Positions 14,707 to 26,311 of a stretch of 64,000 nt of DNA are shown here, piece after piece. Position numbers and translations under genes: made by a program. The notes under the pieces were generated by a model, which worked only from the letters and a program-made list of their open reading frames with translations, did no database searches and was not told where the DNA came from. This stretch comes from the human T2T-CHM13v2.0 reference genome, Homo sapiens: assembly GCF_009914755.1 (NCBI RefSeq), contig NC_060926.1, one strand, 5' to 3'. Position 1 is the stretch's first letter; every line of letters starts with the position of its first letter.

Positions 14707-15094
14707 AATTCCCTGCCATTTTGAGATATTTTCCAGATAATTTTGGTACTACCTCAAGGGATTGGTTATCATTTTTTCCTAGAAAACAGTGTCACAATTT
14801 GAACTTTTTATCTTGCTGTCTTTCAAAAAGTCACTCTGATTCAGAGGTGAGTAGGCAAATTATTATTTCTTCCTCTCATTTTAAACCTCCCATGATGAAT
14901 CAAAGACTAAGAATCAAATAACCGTATCATTGATATTTTCAATTATCTTTAGTATGAGCTTTAAAAACTTTATGTTGTTGTTCTTTATTTACAAATGTCA
15001 TAGCCATCACAAGAAGAAAGAAGCAGCCTGGATGGCCTAATTACCACTTAAAAGAGAGCTCCCCTGATGATACGATGTCAATTAATGGACTTTG

Positions 15095-15578
15095 TGTAAG
15101 GGAACATTTTGCATATTTCTGCATGTCTTGTGACAGCTTTTTCACTATTCTGTCTTTTCGAGGATGTTTGTATAGCTAACAGCCTTGGAAGATATATTTC
15201 TCTTTTGAGCAGAAGGCAAATTTTGTTTTCTGACCAGTACAATAAAGATAATATCTGCTACTAAAGCAATAATATTTTAGTTGGGGTTCACAGCCTCCCT
15301 CAACAGATGGGGGCCTTGCTAAGCTTGGGGCTCCTCAGCTGTGACAGGAAACCATTGTATGCACAGCATCCACTCCATCAGCTCCACATGGCCCCTCCAG
15401 TGGTTGTGTAGCAGGGAGCACCCATGTGAACCTGAAGCTCATACTGCCTGCTGAACTGTGAGCGCTAATGTCTTCTGTCTATGACACAGGGAATATTTGT
15501 CCATCAGTAAGACCATGACATCCTCACTGGTTAGTTTGCAAGTACAGTAAAATCTCAGATCCCTAGCAATTTTTGACA
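15095..15578 (+). mobile_element. LTR40-like ERVL solo LTR
   Basis: aggatgtttgtatagctaacagccttggaagat...tgaagctcatactgcctgctg...ttgcaagtacagtaaaatctcagatccc...ttgaca. Confidence 0.75.
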
Positions 15579-15649
15579 ATGTCTATAGGTTAAGCTACTG
15601 ATGTCTCAGCCTTTGCTTATTTCTTCAGTATAGACTAATCTGTCATCAT

Positions 15650-16240
15650 AAATATTTCCAGAGATCTTAACTTTAATATGTCCAGAATTGAACTCATATT
15701 TATTTGGTACCCCAAACCATTTTCCCTTCAAGTGCTCCCATTTCAGTAAATTTTACTCTGAATTACGTAGAGAAGAAACTTTAGAATGGTCAACCTGCAC
15801 TTCTAATCAACTACTAAGTCTCATTCCTGCCACTACATACCAAGCAGATCACTATCATTCCTTACTTCCTGTATTATTCTCCTCTAATCTACTGGCAGAC
15901 CACAGACAAATGTCAAAAGATCTAAGTATGTCACTTCCCAATTTAAAAGCTTTCAGTGGATTCCTGGTTGGCATTAGGTAAAATAACAATACTTAAACTT
16001 GGCTTCCAATGTTGCTGTTTCCACACCTAGTCTTGTGTCCAACCCTACCTTTTGTTCTCTCCTTCATGGACTCTAATCTCCAATTGTAATAAATTTCTGT
16101 GCATGAATCCAGTGTCTTTAATTTTACCCCTCATCACCTGGTCATTCTGTTCCCTTGGCATGAAACATTTTGTTTTCTATACTTTATCTGCCTAAAAATG
16201 ATGTAGAACATACAAAGCACTGAAAAACCTCCCTGCCAAC
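15650..16240 (+). mobile_element. L2 fragment
   Basis: ctttaatatgtccagaattgaactc...tatgtcacttcccaatttaaaagctttcagtggattcc matches the L2 3' region. Confidence 0.65.
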
Positions 16241-16634
16241 CAAGGAATGTATTAGATAATGTCAATAAGAAATAATTATTTAATGTTTCTGGAATTAATG
16301 CATTTTGAAATTTGCTTCATAAATTCATAGAAATTACTTTTTTCAAAACAAGCATCAATTTATGGTACCTAGAAACTACCCCCCTCACACACACATGCAC
16401 ACTAAGCCAGTGAGATGAACATTTGTATATCTGTATGAGTTGTGCATATTATGAATTCCTAGCAGTGAGAATGCAATTAATTTTGAAGGGTAAATAGAAT
16501 TATGATTTGTTAATACACCTGCAATGGTAAGCAATGCTAAATTAAGATACAACTAATTTTGATTAGCTATATTAAAACTTGAGGTATTATGGAAATTAAT
16601 GATAGCCATATTTCATTTGACATTTAGTTTAAAT

Positions 16635-16835
16635 CGGGTACTGGACCAAGTTCTTCATACATGTTACCTCATTTAATCCTCATAACATTCACATGGGTGG
16701 ATACTATTATTAATTAATTTTACAGATGGTGGAACTGAAGTTTAGAGGGTTTAACTTACCTAGTGTTTCTGAGCCAGATGGATCTCAGCAGAGAAAGAAC
16801 CGTGGTCTTCAAATTCCAAAATAAGCCTCTTTACT
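16635..16835 (-). mobile_element. MIR
   Basis: catttaatcctcataac...tactattatta...ttttacagatggtggaactgaagtttagagg. Confidence 0.8.
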
Positions 16836-18239
16836 CGACAGGCTCAACTGCATGCTATTAGTAGAGTGAAAATGAATGCACACAATGCCATCTTTGAAAG
16901 AGTGATAAATGTGATGAGTTAAAATAGTTTGTTTACCTGGAATTCCAGTATAACTGTCATCTTTAACATCTGTAAAGACATTAGTAAAAATGCCTGTGAG
17001 TTTGGATATCTGATTAAAATAAAAATTCTACTAAAGTGAGTTATTTTCACCAATATTACTAAAAAAGAAAGCTGAAGTCATGGAGTGTAACAGTCACAGG
17101 GCATTTTATATAAAGCTCCTCAGTTCCAAATCCTCAGGTCCTCAGGATGTGGGGCTATTCCATCGCCACTTACATTGTCCTATGGTGAGTTCTGCCCACA
17201 CTACCCTGAAAACTCATAAAATCTAAAATCTTGGCCGATAAACATGTATATTGTTCAAAATAATTTGAATGGAAATCAATTTAGAGAATATTCACCTGTT
17301 AAGAATCAGGCCTTGAGATCTTATGGAAGTTATTAATCTTGGAGAACAAAGATATTGTCCTGTTGCTAAGTACATTGCCACTAGACAATTAGGAGTACTT
17401 CTTTACTTTATGAGACTCATAATGAGACTTTCTCCTCCAAGTCTTCTTGAAAAAACCTGTTATAGCCTTTTCAAAGAGAAAATTAATTCAAATTAAATTA
17501 TATATGTATAGCTGAAATATGTTTGAGAAATCATCAAAACAATAATACATATTATTAAATTTATTATAACAAACTTATAAAAATTGCAATTTACAGAATT
17601 CACACTTACAGAGAGATATATGTCAAGTGATTACTACATAGAAGCAGGGGAGAACAGAGAGTGGGAGTAAAGCTCTAGAATTAGTCTGGCTAGTTCATCT
17701 GGGCAATACCACTTCTGTTCAATAATTTTGGAACAAGAATGATGTTATTGTCCTCCATAGAGGAGAAATGTAATCTCATAGGCCAATATCACTGGAAGCT
17801 GGTATGCAATTTCTACAGCAGACATTCTGCTCCAGGTTACCCATCTTATGGGAGTTCATTTTGGATCTCAGCACAAAGGGATAGATCTCTCCTTTGGTGG
17901 GTCTTAGGCCTTAATCAGTACTGTTCTACCAGAGAGGCAGCCGAAAGTTCTAATCTTTATTTCAAATTCTAAATGATCTGTTCTGAGATTTTCGTATTTC
18001 TGCAGGTAAAAAATAACCGTAAATACTAAACTTGCTTCCTTGGGTCTATATTCTCCTTCAAATCATGGCTTGCTACTATTTAATTTCCTGTTGATTCACT
18101 GATGTCTTAAAGTAAATGTTTGATATGTTACCCAGACTTTTTGGTTGTTTCTCACAATTCAAGGTAAGTTCCATATTATTTAGTTCAAAATTATACAATA
18201 CAGAAGTCTTCATTTAATATTTTCAGAAATCTTAAGACT

Positions 18240-18344
18240 TAGAAATATTATTTTCTTTTGACAGATGAAAAACATAAGGATCAAAAAGAGTAATTTATCA
18301 TTCTGAGATAATATATATATATCTAAGGTTATATAATTATTATA
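18240..18344 (-). mobile_element. MIR fragment truncated by the satellite island
   Basis: aatattattttcttttgacagatgaaaaacataaggatcaaaaagagtaatt...ctaaggttatata matches the MIR core, then stops. Confidence 0.5.
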
Positions 18345-19258
18345 TGATTATTAAGACTGATATTTAATAATTAATCATATTATTACTCCTAATACCACAG
18401 GGGGTGTACACCTACCTGTGATATTGTTCCTCATATCCAGGGATGGAGAGCATGATATTAGTTTTAATATCGCAGTAGGTGTACACTCACCCTGTGACAC
18501 TGATCCTAATATCCAGGGGGGAGAGTATGACATGACTCCCAACATAACAATGAATGTACAGCCACCTGGTGATATTGCTCCGAATATTCATGGAAGAAGC
18601 CTATAATATTACTCCCAATATCGCAGGGAGTGTACACCTCTTCTGTGATATTGTTCCTAGTATCCTGAGGGGGAGAGGATGATAATAATTCCAGTATCGC
18701 AGGCTGTGTTCACCCACCCTGTGATATTGATATGAATATCCTGAAAGGGAGAGGATGATATTACTCCCCCATAATAGATAGATGTTATTCCCCATAATAG
18801 AGTAGGAGGTGTACACCCACCCTGTGATATTGTTCCCAATATTCAGAGGCCAAGAGGTTGATATTACTCCCAATATCGCAGAAGGTGTACACCCCCGTGT
18901 GAGATGGTCCTTAATAATATTCCAAGGTGGAGGGGGTGATATTACTACTTATATCGCAGAAAGTGTACACCCCCCATGGATATTGTTCCCATGATCCTGG
19001 AGGGAAGAGGATGATATTACTTTAAATATCACAGAAGGTGGACTTGCCCCCACTGATATTGTTTCTAATTTCAACGTGGGAGAGGACGATATGCCACCCA
19101 ATATCGCAGGGAGTAGAAACACCCCTGTGATACTGTTCTTAATATTCAGGGAGGAAGAGGATGATATTACACCCAATACAGCCGGGTGTACACCTTCTGT
19201 ACACCGAGGGTGTAAACACATCTGTGAAATAGTTCATAATTTCCAGAGGGGGAGATGA
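18345..19258 (+). repeat. SATR1/SATR2-type ~75-bp satellite, left arm of a ~0.9-kb inverted repeat (~12 monomers)
   Basis: Monomer gatattactcccaatatcgcagggggtgtacaccccctgtgatattgttcctaatatccagggggagaggat. The arm is the reverse complement of 19362-20249. Confidence 0.9.
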
Positions 19259-19361
19259 GGCACCCCCCTGAGATATGGGGAGTAAGAGCCACCCCCTCTC
19301 CCCCTCTGGTTATTACGACCCACGGTGGACTCACAGCTTGTTTATGATATTGTGAGTAGTA
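19256..19361 (-). repeat. GC-rich variant monomer and palindrome spacer
   Basis: tgaggcacccccctgagatatggggagtaagagccaccccctctccccctctggttattacgaccc. The same variant recurs at 23239-23334 and aligns to the reverse complement of the main monomer. Confidence 0.85.
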
Positions 19362-20249
19362 TCATCTCCCCCTCTGGAAATTATGAACTATTTCACAGAC
19401 GGGTGTACACCCGTCTGTATTGGGAGTAATATCATCCTCTTCCTCCCTGAATATTAAGAACAGTATCACAGGGGTGTTTCTACTCCCTGCGATATTGGGT
19501 GGCATATACCCCTCTCCCACGTTGAAATTAGAAACAATATCAGTGGGGGCGTGTCCACCTTCTGTGATATTTAAAGTAATATCACCCTCTTCCCTCCAGG
19601 ATCATGGGAACAATATCCCTGGGGGGTGTACACTTTCTGCGATATACGTTGTAATATCACCCCCTCCGCCTTGGAATATTATTAAGGACCATCTCACACG
19701 GGGGTGTACACCTCCTGCGATATTGGGAGTAGTATCAACCTCTCGGCCTCTGAATATTAGGAACACTATCACAGGATGGGTGTACACCTCCTACTCTATT
19801 ATGGGGAGTAATATCTATCTATTATGGGGAGTAATATCATCCTCTCCCTTTCAGGATATTCATCACAATATCACAGGGTGGGTGAACATGGCCTGCGATA
19901 CTGGCATTATTATCATCCTCTCCCTCTCGGGATACTAGGAACAATATCACAGAAGAGGTGTACACTCCCTGCGATATTGGGAGTAATATCATACGCTTCT
20001 TCCGTGAATATTCGGAGCAATATCACCGGGTGGCTGTCCATTCATTGCTATGTTGGGAGTCATGTCATACTCTACCCCCTGGATATTAGGATCAGTGTCA
20101 CAGGTGAGTGTACACCTACTGCGATTTTAAAACTAATATCATGCTCTCCATCCCTGGATATGAGGAACAATATCACAGGTAGGTGTACACCCCCTGTGGT
20201 ATTAGGAGTAATAATATTATTAATTATTAAACATCAGTCTTAATTATCA
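19362..20249 (-). repeat. SATR-type satellite, antisense array (right arm of the inverted repeat)
   Basis: Reverse-complement monomers (gatattgggagtaatatcatcctctccc...). About 30 differences from the left arm in ~580 bp compared by eye. Confidence 0.9.
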
Positions 20250-20595
20250 ATGGTAATATTAATTAATAGTACAACCTTATTAATCATTAATGATTATTTT
20301 AAATATATGATTATGCATGATTTAAATTATTACTATTAAGGTCATTTTTCAATAATATTAGTTATTAATTTTAATATTAATTATTGTTTTATTACCAACA
20401 TCACTTATGATTGATTTAAGTAACATTAATTACTGATATCATTATTTTATTATTAATAGTGATATTACTATTATTAGTAGTAATCATTAATATTTTTAGT
20501 CCATATTAACTTTTACTATCTCTATTGTAATTATTAATATCGATGATTACTATTAATTGTTATTATATTTATTAATATTAATAATTAATATAACT
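20205..20595. repeat. Extremely AT-rich low-complexity core between the divergent arrays
   Basis: ~390 bp of tattaat/aatattaa/ttattat words with very little G/C. Confidence 0.9.
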
Positions 20596-23238
20596 GTTCC
20601 CGATATCCGTGGGGGAGAGGATATTACTCCCGATATCGCAGAAAGTGTACACCCTTCTGTGATGTTACTTCTAATAGCTGGGGGTAGAGGATGACATTAT
20701 TGAAAATATCGCAGTGGGTGTACATCCCTTCGGTCATCTTGTTCCTAATATCCTGGGTGGGAGCAGATGAAATGACTCCCAATATCTCAGGGGGCGGAGA
20801 CCTCCCCCGTGATACTGTCCCTAACGTCCAAAGGTGGAGAGGATGGTATTTCTTCCAATTTCACAAGGGGTGCACACCACCCCTGTGATATTGATCCTAA
20901 TATCCAGGGGGCAAGAGGATGATATTAGTCTCAATATTGCAGGAGGTGTACACTCCCTAGGGATATTGTTCCTAATATCCAGGGACGGAGAGAATGATAT
21001 CACTCCCAATATAGCAGGGGGTGTACACCCCTTCTGTGACATTGTTCCTAATAGCCAGCGTGGGAGAGGAAGATATTACCCCCAATATCGCAGGCGGTGT
21101 ACACCCCCTTGTGACATTGTTCCTTCTATCCTGGGAGGGAGAGGAAGATACTAGTGGCAATATCGCAGGGGCTGTACACACCCACTGTGATATTGTTTCG
21201 AGTATCCCGAGGGGGGAGAAAATGATATTATTCCCAATATCGCAGGGGGTGTACATCCTCCTGTGATATCGTTTCTTATATTCAGGGGGAGAGGATGATA
21301 TTACTCCCAATATCTCAGGTGTTGTACACACCTCCTGCGATATTGTTCCTAATATCCCGAAGGGGAGAGCATATTACTCTCAATATCGCAGGGGGTGTAC
21401 ACCTCCTTTGGAATACTGTTTTTAGTATCCATGATGGGAGAGGATGATATTACTCTCAATATCGCAAGAAGTGTACAGCCGCCTGTGATATAGTTCCTAA
21501 TATCTAGGTGGAGAGAGGATGATATTACCGCCCGTATTGCACGAGTTGTAAAACCTCTTCGATATTTTGCCTACAATCCCGAGGGGAGAGGACGATACTA
21601 CTCCCAATATCGAAGGTGTACACCCCCCTGTGACTATTCCCAATATCCAAGTCGGGAGACGATGACATTACGCCCAATATCGCAGGGGATATACACCCAC
21701 CCTGGGATATTGTTCCTTTTATCAAGAAGGGGAGAGGATGACATTACTCCCAATATCACAGGGGCTGTACACCCCTCCTGTGATATTGTTCTTAATATCC
21801 TAGGAAAGAGAGGATGATACTACACCCAATATCGCAGGGGGTGTACACCCACCTCCTTAAGATATTGTTCTTAATGTACTCCACCTCCCCCTACCAGGGA
21901 TATTGTTCCTCATATCCAGGGGATGAGAGGATAACATTATGCCCATTATCGCAGGGGGTGTACACACCCTCTGTGATGTTGTTCCTAGTATCCAAAGGTA
22001 GAGACGATGATATTACTGGCCATATCGCAGGGGGTGTACACCCTTCTGTGATATTGTTTTTGATATTCGAGGTGGGAGAGGATAACATTAGTCCCAATAT
22101 GGCAGAAGGTGTGCGGACCCCTGTGATATAGTGCCTAATGTACAGGCAAAAGAGAATAATATTACTCTCAATATCGCAGGGAGTGTAACCCCCTCAACCC
22201 CCCGTATATTGTTCGTAATATGCAGCGGGGTAGAAGCTGATATTACTCCCAGTTTCGCAGAAGGTGCACACACACCTGTGATATAGTTCGTAATACCCAG
22301 CGGGAAAGAGGCTGATATAACTCTGGATCTCGCAGTGGGTGTACACCCCCAACCCCCCCGGGGTATTGTTCCTAATATCCAGGTGGGAAGACGATGATAT
22401 TGCTGACAATATCGAAGGGGGTGTACAACTCTTCTGTGATATGGCTTCTGATATCGAGGGGGTGAGTGGATGATATTACTCCCAATAACGTAGCAACTGT
22501 ACAGCACCGTGTGATTTTGTCCTTAATAACCACATGGGGAGAAGTGATATTACTCTCAATATTGCAAGGGGTGTACACCCCACCTGTGACATTGTTTCTT
22601 ATATCCAGGAAAGGAGAAGATGATATTACTACCAATATCGAAGAGATGTACAGCCCCATGGGATATTGTTCTAAATATACAGGTTGAAAGAGGATCAGAT
22701 GACTCCCAAAATAACAAGGGGTGTACACCCCGCCTGTGATATGAATCGTAAAATTTAGAAGAGTGAATGACATTGCTTCCAAAAAAACACGGGGTGTACA
22801 CCCCCTCTCTGATATCGTTCCTGTCATCTAAAGGAAGAGATGATGATATTACTCCCAGTACCGCAGAATATACACCCCCCCTGTGATATTGTGCGTCACA
22901 ACTAGTGGGGGAGAGCATGATATTACTTCAAATATGACAGTGGCTTTACACCCCGTCTGTGATACTGCTCCTAATTTCCAGTAGCTAAAGTAAGATGTGC
23001 CTCCCAATAGAGTAGTGGGTGGACACCCGCCCTGTGATATTTCCCCGACTATTTAGGGAAACACAGGATGACATGACCCCAAATCCCGCAAAAAGTGAAC
23101 ACCCATTGTGTGATATGGTTCCTAATACGCGCAGGTGTAGAGGATGATATTACGTTTCATATCGCAGGCTGGGTACACACACCCTGTGAAATTGTTCCTA
23201 ATGGCAGGAAAAAAGAGAATGCTAATAATGGACACAGA
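20596..23238 (+). repeat. SATR-type ~75-bp satellite, sense array (~35 monomers)
   Basis: tgtaca cores recur at ~73-77 bp spacing (e.g. near 21021, 21097, 21172, 21249, 21322). Confidence 0.92.
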
Positions 23239-23334
23239 TAAGAGCCACCCGCGATGCGGGGAGTAAGAGCCACCCCCTCTCCCCCGCCTGGCTATTACGA
23301 CCCGCATCGCAGGGGGGTGAGGCACTCCCCCGCG
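23239..23334 (-). repeat. Terminal GC/CpG-rich variant monomer
   Basis: gcgatgcggggagtaagagccaccccctctcccccgcctggctattacgacccgcatcgcaggggggtgaggcactcccccgcg is in direct orientation with 19256-19323. Confidence 0.85.
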
Positions 23335-23339
23335 TTTTT

Positions 23340-25885
<2,546 letters not shown>

Positions 25886-25928
25886 CCTCAATTTGTTTTT
25901 ATAATTATGTATTTTAGTGTTAGCTTTC

Positions 25929-26311
25929 CATATTAGTCCATTTTTTTACACTGCTGTAAGGATACTACTGGGTAATTTATAAATGAAGAGGTTTAATTGA
26001 CTCACAGTTCTGCATGACTGGTGAGGCCTCTGGAAAGTTACAATCACTGTGAATGGGGAAGCAGTCATGTCTTACATGGAGGCAGGCAAGAGAGAGCACT
26101 TGTGAGTACAGGAAAAACTGCCATCATCTATAAAACCATCAGATCTCCTGGGAATTCACTCAGTATACTGAGAACAACATAGAGGAACTGCCCCCACAAT
26201 CAAATCACGACCCTCCCTTGACACCTGAGGATTGCAGGTGCCTCCCTCGGTAAGTGGGGATTACGATTTGAAATGAGATTTGGTTGGGAAACACAGTGCC
26301 AAACCATGTCA
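25929..26311 (-). mobile_element. THE1D/MSTA-type MaLR solo LTR
   Basis: tattagtccat...gaggtttaattgactcacagttctgcatg...gagatttggttggg...ccaaaccatgtca. 5-bp TSD ctttc (25924-25928 / 26312-26316). Confidence 0.92.

What the first reader, a model, noticed from the sequence alone, without database searches (positions are those of the whole stretch)
19256..23334. ~4.06-kb satellite cassette with in-register redundant ends: candidate mobile unit with a circular intermediate
Seen: the order is GC-rich variant monomer (from 19256), antisense 75-bp array, AT-rich core, sense array, then the same GC-rich variant monomer (to 23334). The last 17 nt (23318-23334 tgaggcactcccccgcg) match the first 17 nt (19256-19272 tgaggcacccccctgag) at 14/17. 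Joining the ends therefore continues the GC-rich monomer in register and closes a 4062-bp circle. Known: the monomer resembles the RepeatMasker satellites SATR1/SATR2, which are annotated only as satellites and, as I recall, are reported mostly in OR7E-type segmental-duplication clusters. I see no such cargo here. Inference: this is one higher-order unit that excised by recombination between GC-rich monomers and reintegrated as eccDNA or a rolling-circle product. That would make SATR a dispersing structured element, with an origin-like layout of an easily unwound core flanked by divergent palindromic iterons, rather than a passive satellite.
Basis: partly seen in the sequence, partly recalled or inferred. 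Interest (0 to 1): 0.9.

Follow-up and report, generated by a model that had tools for sequence, protein, structure and literature searches.

The report
Lone SATR satellite unit with palindrome
This is a single old copy of a known composite primate satellite unit (GC-rich monomers, backward 75-bp array, AT-rich core, forward 75-bp array) with a private 1.9-kb palindrome at one end, and nothing in it shows that it moved as a DNA circle.

Summary
The modules and the 14/17 end match are real. The same order, GC monomers / antisense 75-mers / ~380-bp AT core / sense 75-mers, occurs in all 23 of 26 fetched loci that show an AT core. Head-to-tail dimers with a 4.28-4.37-kb period lie on chr9; one unit aligns to window 19261-23329 at 89%.

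Window 18345-19258 is an inverted copy of 19362-20249 (95.6% without gaps). So 19256 is the inner edge of a palindrome, not an insertion end.

The redundant ends follow from holding slightly more than one period of a periodic array. They carry no weight for a circle. None of 18 blocks seen end to end is a circular permutation, and termini vary with no target-site duplication.

The flanks are unique, apart from one 607-bp inverted copy 52 kb away, so this is not a passenger in a large duplication.

This unit layout is already in print for macaque (10.1101/2025.08.04.668424), and SATR flanks are known in Xiao/DA duplicons.

Verdict: a real, ordinary member of a known composite satellite. The circle and origin ideas are untested.

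The parts
17721..18327 (.). 607-bp stretch abutting the satellite. Its only other copy in the genome is inverted, at chr2:193137988-193138595, 51.7 kb downstream and just outside the window.
   Evidence: 2 candidates, 2 scored, 93% identity; 568 matches, 36 mismatches, 7 gap columns, 94.0%; the homology stops exactly at 18327/18328.
18328..18344 (.). AT-rich junction between the 607-bp copy and the left palindrome arm. It is at least partly AT-core derived.
   Evidence: Left-arm alignments to other loci's AT cores start at 18331-18335 in L017, L020, L021, L026 and L027.
18345..19258 (+). Left palindrome arm: sense-oriented 75-bp monomers plus an inverted copy of the AT core's left end. It is an inverted duplicate of 19362-20249.
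   Evidence: The two arms are sisters in the tree (SH-aLRT 96); the central 801 nt fold as one hairpin, -389 kcal/mol, z -44.
19259..19361 (+). Palindrome spacer: about 1.3 GC-rich variant monomers, co-oriented with the antisense array. This is the native 5' start of the unit.
   Evidence: GC monomers align with antisense-oriented 75-mers; the G-to-antisense junction is conserved at 39 other places (81-92%), and none of them spans the left-arm junction.
19362..20213 (-). Antisense 75-bp array of about 11-12 monomers. The right palindrome arm runs on to 20249.
   Evidence: The array is 837-971 bp in at least one unit of 20 of the 23 loci with an AT core.
20214..20595 (+). AT-rich core, 382 bp, 14.7% G+C, not a true palindrome.
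   Evidence: With both junctions (20100-20720) it is found full length at 34 other places, 83-91% identity; only 40 of 715 candidates were scored.
20596..21341 (+). Sense 75-bp array, the part shared by all unit types. Short-type units end at window-equivalent 21341-21343.
21342..23239 (+). Sense array, the long-type extension, increasingly degenerate towards 23239.
   Evidence: It is shared with chr9 L017/L021/L026, chr14 L016 and others.
23240..23334 (+). About 1.2 GC-rich variant monomers, head to head with the sense array. This is the start of a next unit, cut off by unique DNA at 23335.
   Evidence: the sense-to-GC junction (23100-23334) spans 14 other places at 71-85%.

Best explanation
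The block 18328-23334 is one old, solitary, non-coding copy of the composite SATR higher-order repeat. Its native period reads: GC-rich variant monomers (G), then about 0.9 kb of antisense 75-mers (s), then a ~380-bp AT-rich core (A), then sense 75-mers (S).

The G monomers are diverged 75-mers lying in the same orientation as s. The 95 bp of G at the 3' end are therefore the beginning of a next period. The copy holds slightly more than one period, which is why its ends look redundant and 'close in register'.

How it reached 2q32.3 is not shown. I infer a segment copied out of, or left over from, a tandem G-s-A-S array, by the same non-transposon duplicative processes that spread SATR-flanked duplicons. 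Tandem dimers elsewhere arise by unequal exchange between G arrays.

After arrival, a fold-back or template-switch replication error copied s plus the first 35-50 bp of A in inverted orientation onto the left of G. This made a 1.9-kb palindrome with a 103-bp spacer. The same track possibly also copied 607 bp from 52 kb downstream.

Shown: the anatomy, the conserved module order, the multimers, the unique flanks, the private palindrome and the sister arms. Inferred: the mode of arrival, the single-event origin of the left end, and the ages.
For: - Anatomy.
- G monomers align with antisense-oriented 75-mers.
- Module order G-s-A-S holds in all 23 of 26 fetched loci that show an AT core. The other 3 (L029, L030, L031) show only part of a block.
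- Tandem head-to-tail units: L026 period 4282 bp; L017 and L021 4365 bp; also L015, L019, L023.
- The internal junctions are ancestral. A with both junctions is at 34 other places, G-to-s at 39 and S-to-G at 14.
- Flanks. 14720-17300 has no other match. 17300-18344 has only the 607-bp copy. 23335-24400 has an Alu plus one 71% match. 24320-26000 matches an old interspersed repeat at 66-77%. The window's flanks cluster with no other locus's flanks.
- The palindrome arms are each other's nearest relatives (SH-aLRT 96; 95.6%). No other scored place spans the left-arm/G junction (0 of 39).
- The 607-bp copy (94.0%) and the arms (95.6%) differ by z of about 1.4 by my own arithmetic on the and 45 counts, which is compatible with one age. 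Both are inverted copies of sources lying to the right, in colinear order.
- Each monomer holds a hairpin-capable palindromic motif. GGTGTACACC occurs 18 times in the window, all inside 18403-22802, against 0.01 expected.
- Tree: the window unit is sister to a 17-row clade, with end branch 0.033.
- No Rfam family. No Pfam family in the 3 ORFs tested of the 7 that reach 90 aa.
Against: - The mode of arrival is not observed. No empty site or outgroup genome could be examined.
- In 9 of 11 independent flank contexts whose boundary on that side is in view, the block starts in G monomers. The two exceptions are L035 and L031. This is more regular than random breakage of a tandem array would give, and it hints at a G-specific process that my explanation does not account for.
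- Flank groups were made with a simple BLAST rule and could be over- or under-merged.
- Which of the two 607-bp copies is the original is unknown, so the one-track model of the left end is only one of several.
- Gene conversion between the arms could make the palindrome look younger than it is.
- RepeatMasker/Dfam names for the modules were not tested.
Confidence: 0.7

Rival explanations
1. One G-s-A-S unit was excised as a circle by recombination between GC-rich monomers of neighbouring units, perhaps amplified by rolling circle. It then reintegrated here, so SATR spreads through eccDNA.
For: - Tandem units bounded by G arrays exist and could loop out a one-period circle.
- Blocks in unique DNA begin in G in 9 of 11 flank contexts, and four contexts have G at both ends: the window, the chr4/chr11 family, chr13:53.53 and chr9:10.98.
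- Flanks here are unique.
- eccDNA-mediated spread of satellites has been proposed in plants and Drosophila (PMC2543021 and 10.1101/846238; search listing and start of abstracts only).
Against: - The end redundancy is expected of any fragment longer than one period.
- The 5' end used for the closure is a palindrome breakpoint.
- No block seen end to end is a circular permutation (0 of 18).
- A circle opened at random would rarely open in G, which is at most about 15% of a unit by the lengths. The model therefore needs an extra, unknown G-specific opening step.
- G phases at the ends differ between loci.
- No eccDNA data could be consulted.
Confidence: 0.12
2. The block is what is left of a larger structure, either a longer tandem SATR array or a Xiao-type duplicon. 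Deletions between G arrays collapsed it to one unit. The palindrome is a by-product of that collapse.
For: - The 3' G stub shows that a further unit once followed or was copied in part.
- Multi-unit arrays exist elsewhere.
- SATR is reported at duplication breakpoints on 8p23.1 (PMC5088589, passages).
Against: - There is no trace of HERV-E/OR7E-type shared flanks.
- The window unit branches outside the short-type Xiao clade.
Confidence: 0.1
3. The s-A-S core is a foldback-type non-autonomous transposon, with long inverted arms made of tandem subrepeats around an AT-rich loop.
For: Inverted arrays of 75-mers flank the AT core at every locus. The family has several tens of places, 34-39 per probe as lower bounds, with conserved internal junctions.
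Against: - The arms are only about 70% complementary, no better than any two monomers.
- The arms are unequal: s is about 0.9 kb, S is 0.15-3.5 kb.
- The 3' G has the same orientation as the 5' G, so the unit is not symmetric.
- Termini vary and there is no target-site duplication.
- No coding capacity was found.
Confidence: 0.04

Closest known systems
SATR1-SATR1v 'core unit' of macaque mixed arrays (T2T-MMU8v2.0 preprint, 10.1101/2025.08.04.668424; passages read)
   Same: The preprint describes a variable GC-rich SATR1v array, a conserved inverted SATR1 array, an AT-rich uncharacterised repeat (rnd6), then a forward SATR1 array. This is the order seen here and at 23 human loci. It also reports uniformly sized ~377-bp SATR2 pieces between SATR1 arrays; the AT core here is 382 bp. 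Equating the two is my inference.
   Different: - The macaque units are mostly subtelomeric and multi-copy, flanked by spacers and composite repeats. This one is interstitial, single and in unique DNA.
- The macaque inverted and forward arrays are given as 589 and 191 bp. Here they are about 850 and 2640 bp.
- No palindrome of this kind is mentioned in the passages I read.
- The supplements of the preprint were not open to me.
SATR-HERVE-SATR ('SES') flanks of Xiao/DA core duplicons (PMC2700803, passages; PMC5088589, passages)
   Same: The short-type units at chr4p16, chr11q13, chr3, chr7 and chr12 are 88-92% identical to window 19259-21341. I infer from their positions that these are Xiao-type loci.
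   Different: - No HERV-E or OR7E partner and no shared flank here.
- The window unit is the long type and branches just outside the short-type clade.
Palindromic AT-rich repeats (PATRRs) of translocation breakpoints (recalled, not from a call)
   Same: An AT-rich centre inside a larger inverted arrangement, and an association of the family with rearrangement breakpoints.
   Different: The AT core is not itself a near-perfect palindrome. Its best internal inverted repeats are 22-33 nt at 76-86% complementarity, and it folds only modestly better than shuffles (z -2.6). The real palindrome here is made of 75-mers and is centred on a GC monomer.
eccDNA-mediated spread of euchromatic satellites (Drosophila 10.1101/846238; plants PMC2543021; listing and start of abstracts only)
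   Different: No circle data, permuted copies or microhomology junctions were found here.

Membership tests
SATR composite higher-order unit (G / antisense 75-mers / AT core / sense 75-mers) | Module order and orientation | tested here: met
   The window map reads a-S-G-s-A-S-G. G-s-A-S is seen in all 23 of 26 fetched loci that show an AT core.
SATR composite higher-order unit (G / antisense 75-mers / AT core / sense 75-mers) | Colinear sequence homology across the internal junctions | tested here: met
   19259-21341 aligns at 77-92% to 30 units in 22 loci. 19261-23329 aligns at 89.0% to L026. Junction probes.
SATR composite higher-order unit (G / antisense 75-mers / AT core / sense 75-mers) | RepeatMasker/Dfam classification of the modules as SATR1, SATR1v and SATR2 | not testable with these tools
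No repeat library is on hand.
Xiao/DA core duplicon | SATR blocks flanking HERV-E and an OR7E core, with flanks shared among copies | tested here: not met
   Flanks are unique or old interspersed repeats. The window's flanks are singletons in the flank clustering.
Segmental duplication (at least 1 kb, at least 90% identity) | Paralogous stretch meeting the thresholds and extending beyond the repeat | tested here: inconclusive
   The 2.1-kb core reaches 90.1-91.6% to nine units, and the whole 4.1 kb reaches 89.0%. Nothing outside the satellite is shared except the 607-bp inverted copy at 93-94%.
Insertion from an extrachromosomal circle | Copies at different sites are circular permutations of one unit | tested here: not met
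   0 of 18 blocks seen end to end is permuted. 17 start with G by the run table and the 18th (L029) starts with a partial G monomer.
Insertion from an extrachromosomal circle | Circle-junction reads in eccDNA data | not testable with these tools
   No read data. The same S-G-s junction is native to the chr9 tandem dimers, so only reads with locus-specific variants would count.
Transposable element (foldback or other class II) | Defined termini and target-site duplication | tested here: not met
   Ends fall at different monomer phases in different loci, and no duplication flanks the window block.
PATRR-type AT-rich palindrome | Near-perfect palindrome of several hundred AT-rich bases | tested here: not met

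The most novel reading that the evidence does not exclude
SATR units spread by a process specific to the GC-rich monomer. That could be recombination or breakage at the G6-loop-C6 hairpin motif of these monomers, possibly through one-period circles. This would explain why blocks in unrelated unique DNA so regularly begin, and often end, in G monomers. The fold-back palindrome at this locus would be a fossil of the same hairpin-prone chemistry. SATR would then be a self-propagating, protein-free structured repeat that seeds landing sites for Xiao/DA duplications.
Probability: 0.1. Interest if true: 0.7.

Novelty: new member of a known kind. Interest (0 to 1): 0.3.

Why it matters
SATR blocks mark the breakpoints of the OR7E/Xiao/DA duplications. 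Those duplications drive 8p23.1 and related rearrangements (PMC5088589, passages).

A solitary long-type unit in unique DNA, branching just outside the short-type clade, shows what a SATR unit looks like before a duplicon lands next to it. chr14:45.95 Mb appears to show the next stage, with an old long unit head to head with a short-type unit.

The private palindrome shows that these hairpin-rich monomers do suffer fold-back errors. This is a plausible reason why the family sits at breakpoints. None of this is a new kind of element.

Tried and rejected
- Circle reading of the 14/17 match: rejected as non-diagnostic (periodicity; the 5' end is a palindrome junction).
- AT core as a PATRR-like palindrome or special structure: only short imperfect inverted repeats, z -2.6.
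- Coding or RNA function: 7 ORFs of 90-151 aa, of which 3 were scanned and gave 0 Pfam families; 0 Rfam families.
- Empty-site search. The chr1:54.70 Mb stretch that matches the right flank at 71.5% shows nothing like the left flank apart from Alus. The sequence beyond the distal 607-bp copy does not match the right flank. So no pre-insertion site was found.
- Target-site duplication at 18327/18328 versus 23334/23335, and at 17720/17721: none seen.
8 smaller stretches were then obtained. Several SATR places listed were therefore never inspected: chr9:117.99, chr4:8.94/9.50/9.76, chr11:67.99, chr14:45.98, chr8, chr10 and others.
- Literature: searches for 'SATR1' (28 papers) and 'SATR2' (19 papers). 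In the passages I opened I found no description of this chr2 locus, of a human solitary unit, or of a circle model for SATR. Most of the listed papers I saw only as titles.
Full report
**What is in the sequence**

The window is T2T-CHM13 chr2:193068001-193132000. TRF finds ~75-bp tandem arrays from 18404 to 22739. The G+C profile shows an AT-rich island at about 20200-20600. By direct reading and a module map the layout is:
- 18345-19258: sense 75-mers
- 19259-19361: about 1.3 GC-rich variant monomers
- 19362-20213: antisense 75-mers
- 20214-20595: AT core (382 bp, 14.7% G+C)
- 20596-23239: sense 75-mers, decaying towards the end
- 23240-23334: about 1.2 GC-rich monomers (70.5% G+C)
- from 23335: unique AT-rich DNA

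The satellite does not start at 19256. Window 18345-19258 is the reverse complement of 19362-20249. The alignment has 914 columns at 92.9% including a 23-bp indel, or 849 matches and 39 mismatches (95.6%) without gaps. The left arm carries an inverted copy of the first 35-50 bp of the AT core, so it is a copy of the right arm and not simply the forward array of a preceding unit.

In a tree of 28 such segments the two arms are sisters (SH-aLRT 96). The next nearest sequence, chr13:53.53 Mb, is 95.2% identical to the right arm and 94.1% to the left arm. The central 801 nt fold as one long hairpin (-389 kcal/mol; shuffles -95 +/- 7). A probe across the left-arm/GC-monomer junction (19150-19470) finds no other place that spans it. 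All 39 other scored places start at query 98-141, that is window 19247-19290 (38 of them by 19266), where the native GC-to-antisense junction begins. So 19256 is the inner breakpoint of a private 1.9-kb palindrome with a 103-bp spacer.

**Is 19256-23334 a real unit?**

Yes. I fetched 26 other places found with junction probes and labelled them with the window's own GC monomer, 75-mers and AT core.
- All 23 loci that show an AT core have antisense 75-mers on one side of it and sense 75-mers on the other.
- Where the far end of the antisense array is in view, GC monomers sit there.
- The other three loci (L029, L030, L031) show only part of a block.
- The antisense array is 837-971 bp in at least one unit of 20 of the 23 loci. 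It is 1978-2536 bp in L028, L034 and L035.
- The AT core is 307-416 bp, except 728 bp in L034 and some truncated second units.
- The sense array ranges from 138 to 3468 bp.

Units occur head to tail:
- chr9:77.05 Mb (L026) has one unit aligning to window 19261-23329 at 89.0% over 4161 columns and a second aligning to 19259-23041 at 83.5%, with a period of 4282 bp.
- L017 and L021 have a period of 4365 bp.
- L015, L019 and L023 also hold several units.

The internal junctions are old and widespread. These counts are lower bounds, since only 40 candidates are scored per search.
- The AT core with both junctions is found full length at 34 other places at 83-91%.
- The GC-to-antisense junction is found at 39 places.
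- The sense-to-GC junction is found at 14 places.

**Why the ends look redundant**

An alignment of GC monomers with 75-mers shows that the GC monomers are diverged 75-mers lying in the antisense orientation. The native period is therefore [G...s]-A-[S]. The G at 23240-23334 is the beginning of the next period, head to head with the sense array.

The window holds one period plus 95 bp. Any such stretch has ends that can be joined 'in register' to give a circle of exactly one period. The 14/17 match therefore says nothing about a circle. In addition, its 5' member begins at the palindrome breakpoint, not at an insertion end.

**Tests of the mobile and circular reading**

- *Flanks.* 14720-17300 has no second copy. 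17300-18344 has a single one (see below). 23335-24400 has an Alu and one 71% match. 24320-26000 matches an old interspersed repeat at 66-77%. In a clustering of the 2.5-kb flanks of all loci, the window's two flanks are singletons, as are both flanks of chr13:53.53 and chr2:82.53.
- *Permutations.* Of 18 blocks seen from unique DNA to unique DNA, none is a circular permutation. 17 start with G on the antisense side by the run table, and the 18th (L029) starts with a partial GC monomer.
- *Independent contexts.* Grouping by shared flanks gives 9 independent contexts for these 18 blocks. Two further contexts, L035 and L031, have that boundary in view and start in a sense array.
- *Termini.* The GC monomer is cut at different phases in different contexts. 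The 3' ends are G (the window, the chr4/chr11 family, chr13:53.53, chr9:10.98), a sense array (L034, L022), or a truncated second unit. No target-site duplication flanks the window block.
- *Junction.* The junction a circle would create (S-G-s) is native to the tandem dimers.

So there is no positive evidence for a circle and none for a transposon with defined ends. One regularity remains that random breakage does not explain: blocks begin in G in 9 of 11 contexts, although G is at most about 15% of a unit (lengths; my arithmetic). I keep this as the basis of the most novel reading.

**The left end**

Window 17721-18327 has exactly one other copy in the genome. It lies inverted at chr2:193137988-193138595, 51.7 kb downstream (568 matches, 36 mismatches, 94.0%). 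Its homology stops at 18327/18328, exactly where the satellite begins.

Both this piece and the left arm are inverted copies of sources that lie to their right. Read from the palindrome centre outwards, they are in the same order as their sources. Their divergences (6.0% and 4.4%) do not differ significantly (z about 1.4, my arithmetic). A single fold-back replication track with one long template switch would produce this, but the polarity cannot be settled without outgroup genomes.

The monomers carry hairpin-capable palindromes. GGTGTACACC occurs 18 times in the window, all within 18403-22802, against 0.01 expected. The GC monomers carry a G-run/loop/C-run. This makes fold-back priming plausible, as an inference.

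**Place in the family and age**

In a maximum-likelihood tree of 31 units over the 2.1-kb core, the window unit is sister to a 17-row clade (SH-aLRT 95 for the 18 rows together). Its end branch is 0.033, and its nearest relatives are at path length 0.08-0.09.

Within that clade, a 16-row group (SH-aLRT 99) contains every short-type unit, in which the sense array is about 745 bp or shorter and ends at window-equivalent 21341-21343. All units outside it are long. So the window unit and the long unit at chr14:45.95 Mb are the nearest long-type outgroups of the short-type units found at chr4p16, chr11q13, chr3, chr7 and chr12.

At roughly 1e-9 substitutions per site per year, the end branch and the arm divergence suggest tens of millions of years. 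This is an inference only.

**What is known**

- The macaque T2T preprint 10.1101/2025.08.04.668424 (passages) describes a core unit made of a variable GC-rich SATR1v array, a conserved inverted SATR1 array, an AT-rich uncharacterised repeat, and a forward SATR1 array. It describes solo-core and multi-core arrangements and ~377-bp SATR2 pieces between SATR1 arrays. It states that the mechanisms of emergence and turnover of subtelomeric regions remain poorly understood. It contains neither 'eccDNA' nor 'rolling'.
- Xiao/DA duplicons are flanked by SATR-HERVE-SATR (PMC2700803, passages).
- 8p23.1 duplication breakpoints map to SATR1/SATR2 (PMC5088589, passages).
- The T2T repeat paper lists a new SATR1 variant (10.1101/2021.07.12.451456, passage).
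- A 2006 paper notes 2.3-2.6-kb 'SATR2' copies in 13q duplications (PMC1794570, passage).
- ZNF141 and ZBTB24 ChIP signals over SATR repeats are reported (passages).
- eccDNA spread of satellites is an existing hypothesis in other taxa (listing only).
- I could not see the preprint's supplements, which may hold human comparisons.

**Verdict**

The unit is real and its dispersal in unique DNA is real. The layout is already described, the circle inference rests on a non-diagnostic feature, and the true left end is a private palindrome. There is no coding or RNA-family signal. Interest is modest.

Noticed in passing
window 17721-18327 and L009:4988-5595 (chr2:193137988-193138595): A pair of 607-bp inverted repeats, 94% identical and 51.7 kb apart, brackets the SATR block and about 47 kb of unique DNA. 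It is a possible substrate for an inversion polymorphism. The distal copy is bounded by a (TA)n run on one side.
   Followed up: partly
L016 (chr14:45944601-45954600): An old long-type SATR unit lies head to head, about 0.5 kb apart, with a short-type unit from a different clade of the tree. It looks like a duplicon that landed beside an older solitary unit.
   Followed up: partly
window-equivalent 21341-21343 in L010-L014, L015, L016, L019, L023-L025, L033: All short-type units end at the same point of the sense array and continue into GC monomers. This shared breakpoint is confined to one 16-row clade (SH-aLRT 99), which suggests a single ancestral deletion or unequal exchange.
   Followed up: partly
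L017, L021, L026 (chr9:42.18, 80.49, 77.05 Mb): Three nearly identical tandem dimers of the long unit, with GC arrays of 1.1-1.7 kb at one end. They are evidently copies within chr9 pericentromeric duplications.
   Followed up: no
window 19795-19838: A perfect 23-bp tandem duplication inside the right palindrome arm accounts for most of the gap columns between the arms.
   Followed up: no
window 23369-24487 and L036:2007-3100 (chr1:54.70 Mb): The right flank aligns at 71.5% over 1151 columns to a single chr1 place, and the alignment runs through an Alu in both. This may be an ancient paralogous stretch or an old composite repeat.
   Followed up: no
window 24320-26000: An old interspersed repeat: 66-77% identity to at least 40 places, about 460 bp in most and up to about 1570 bp in a few.
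   Followed up: no
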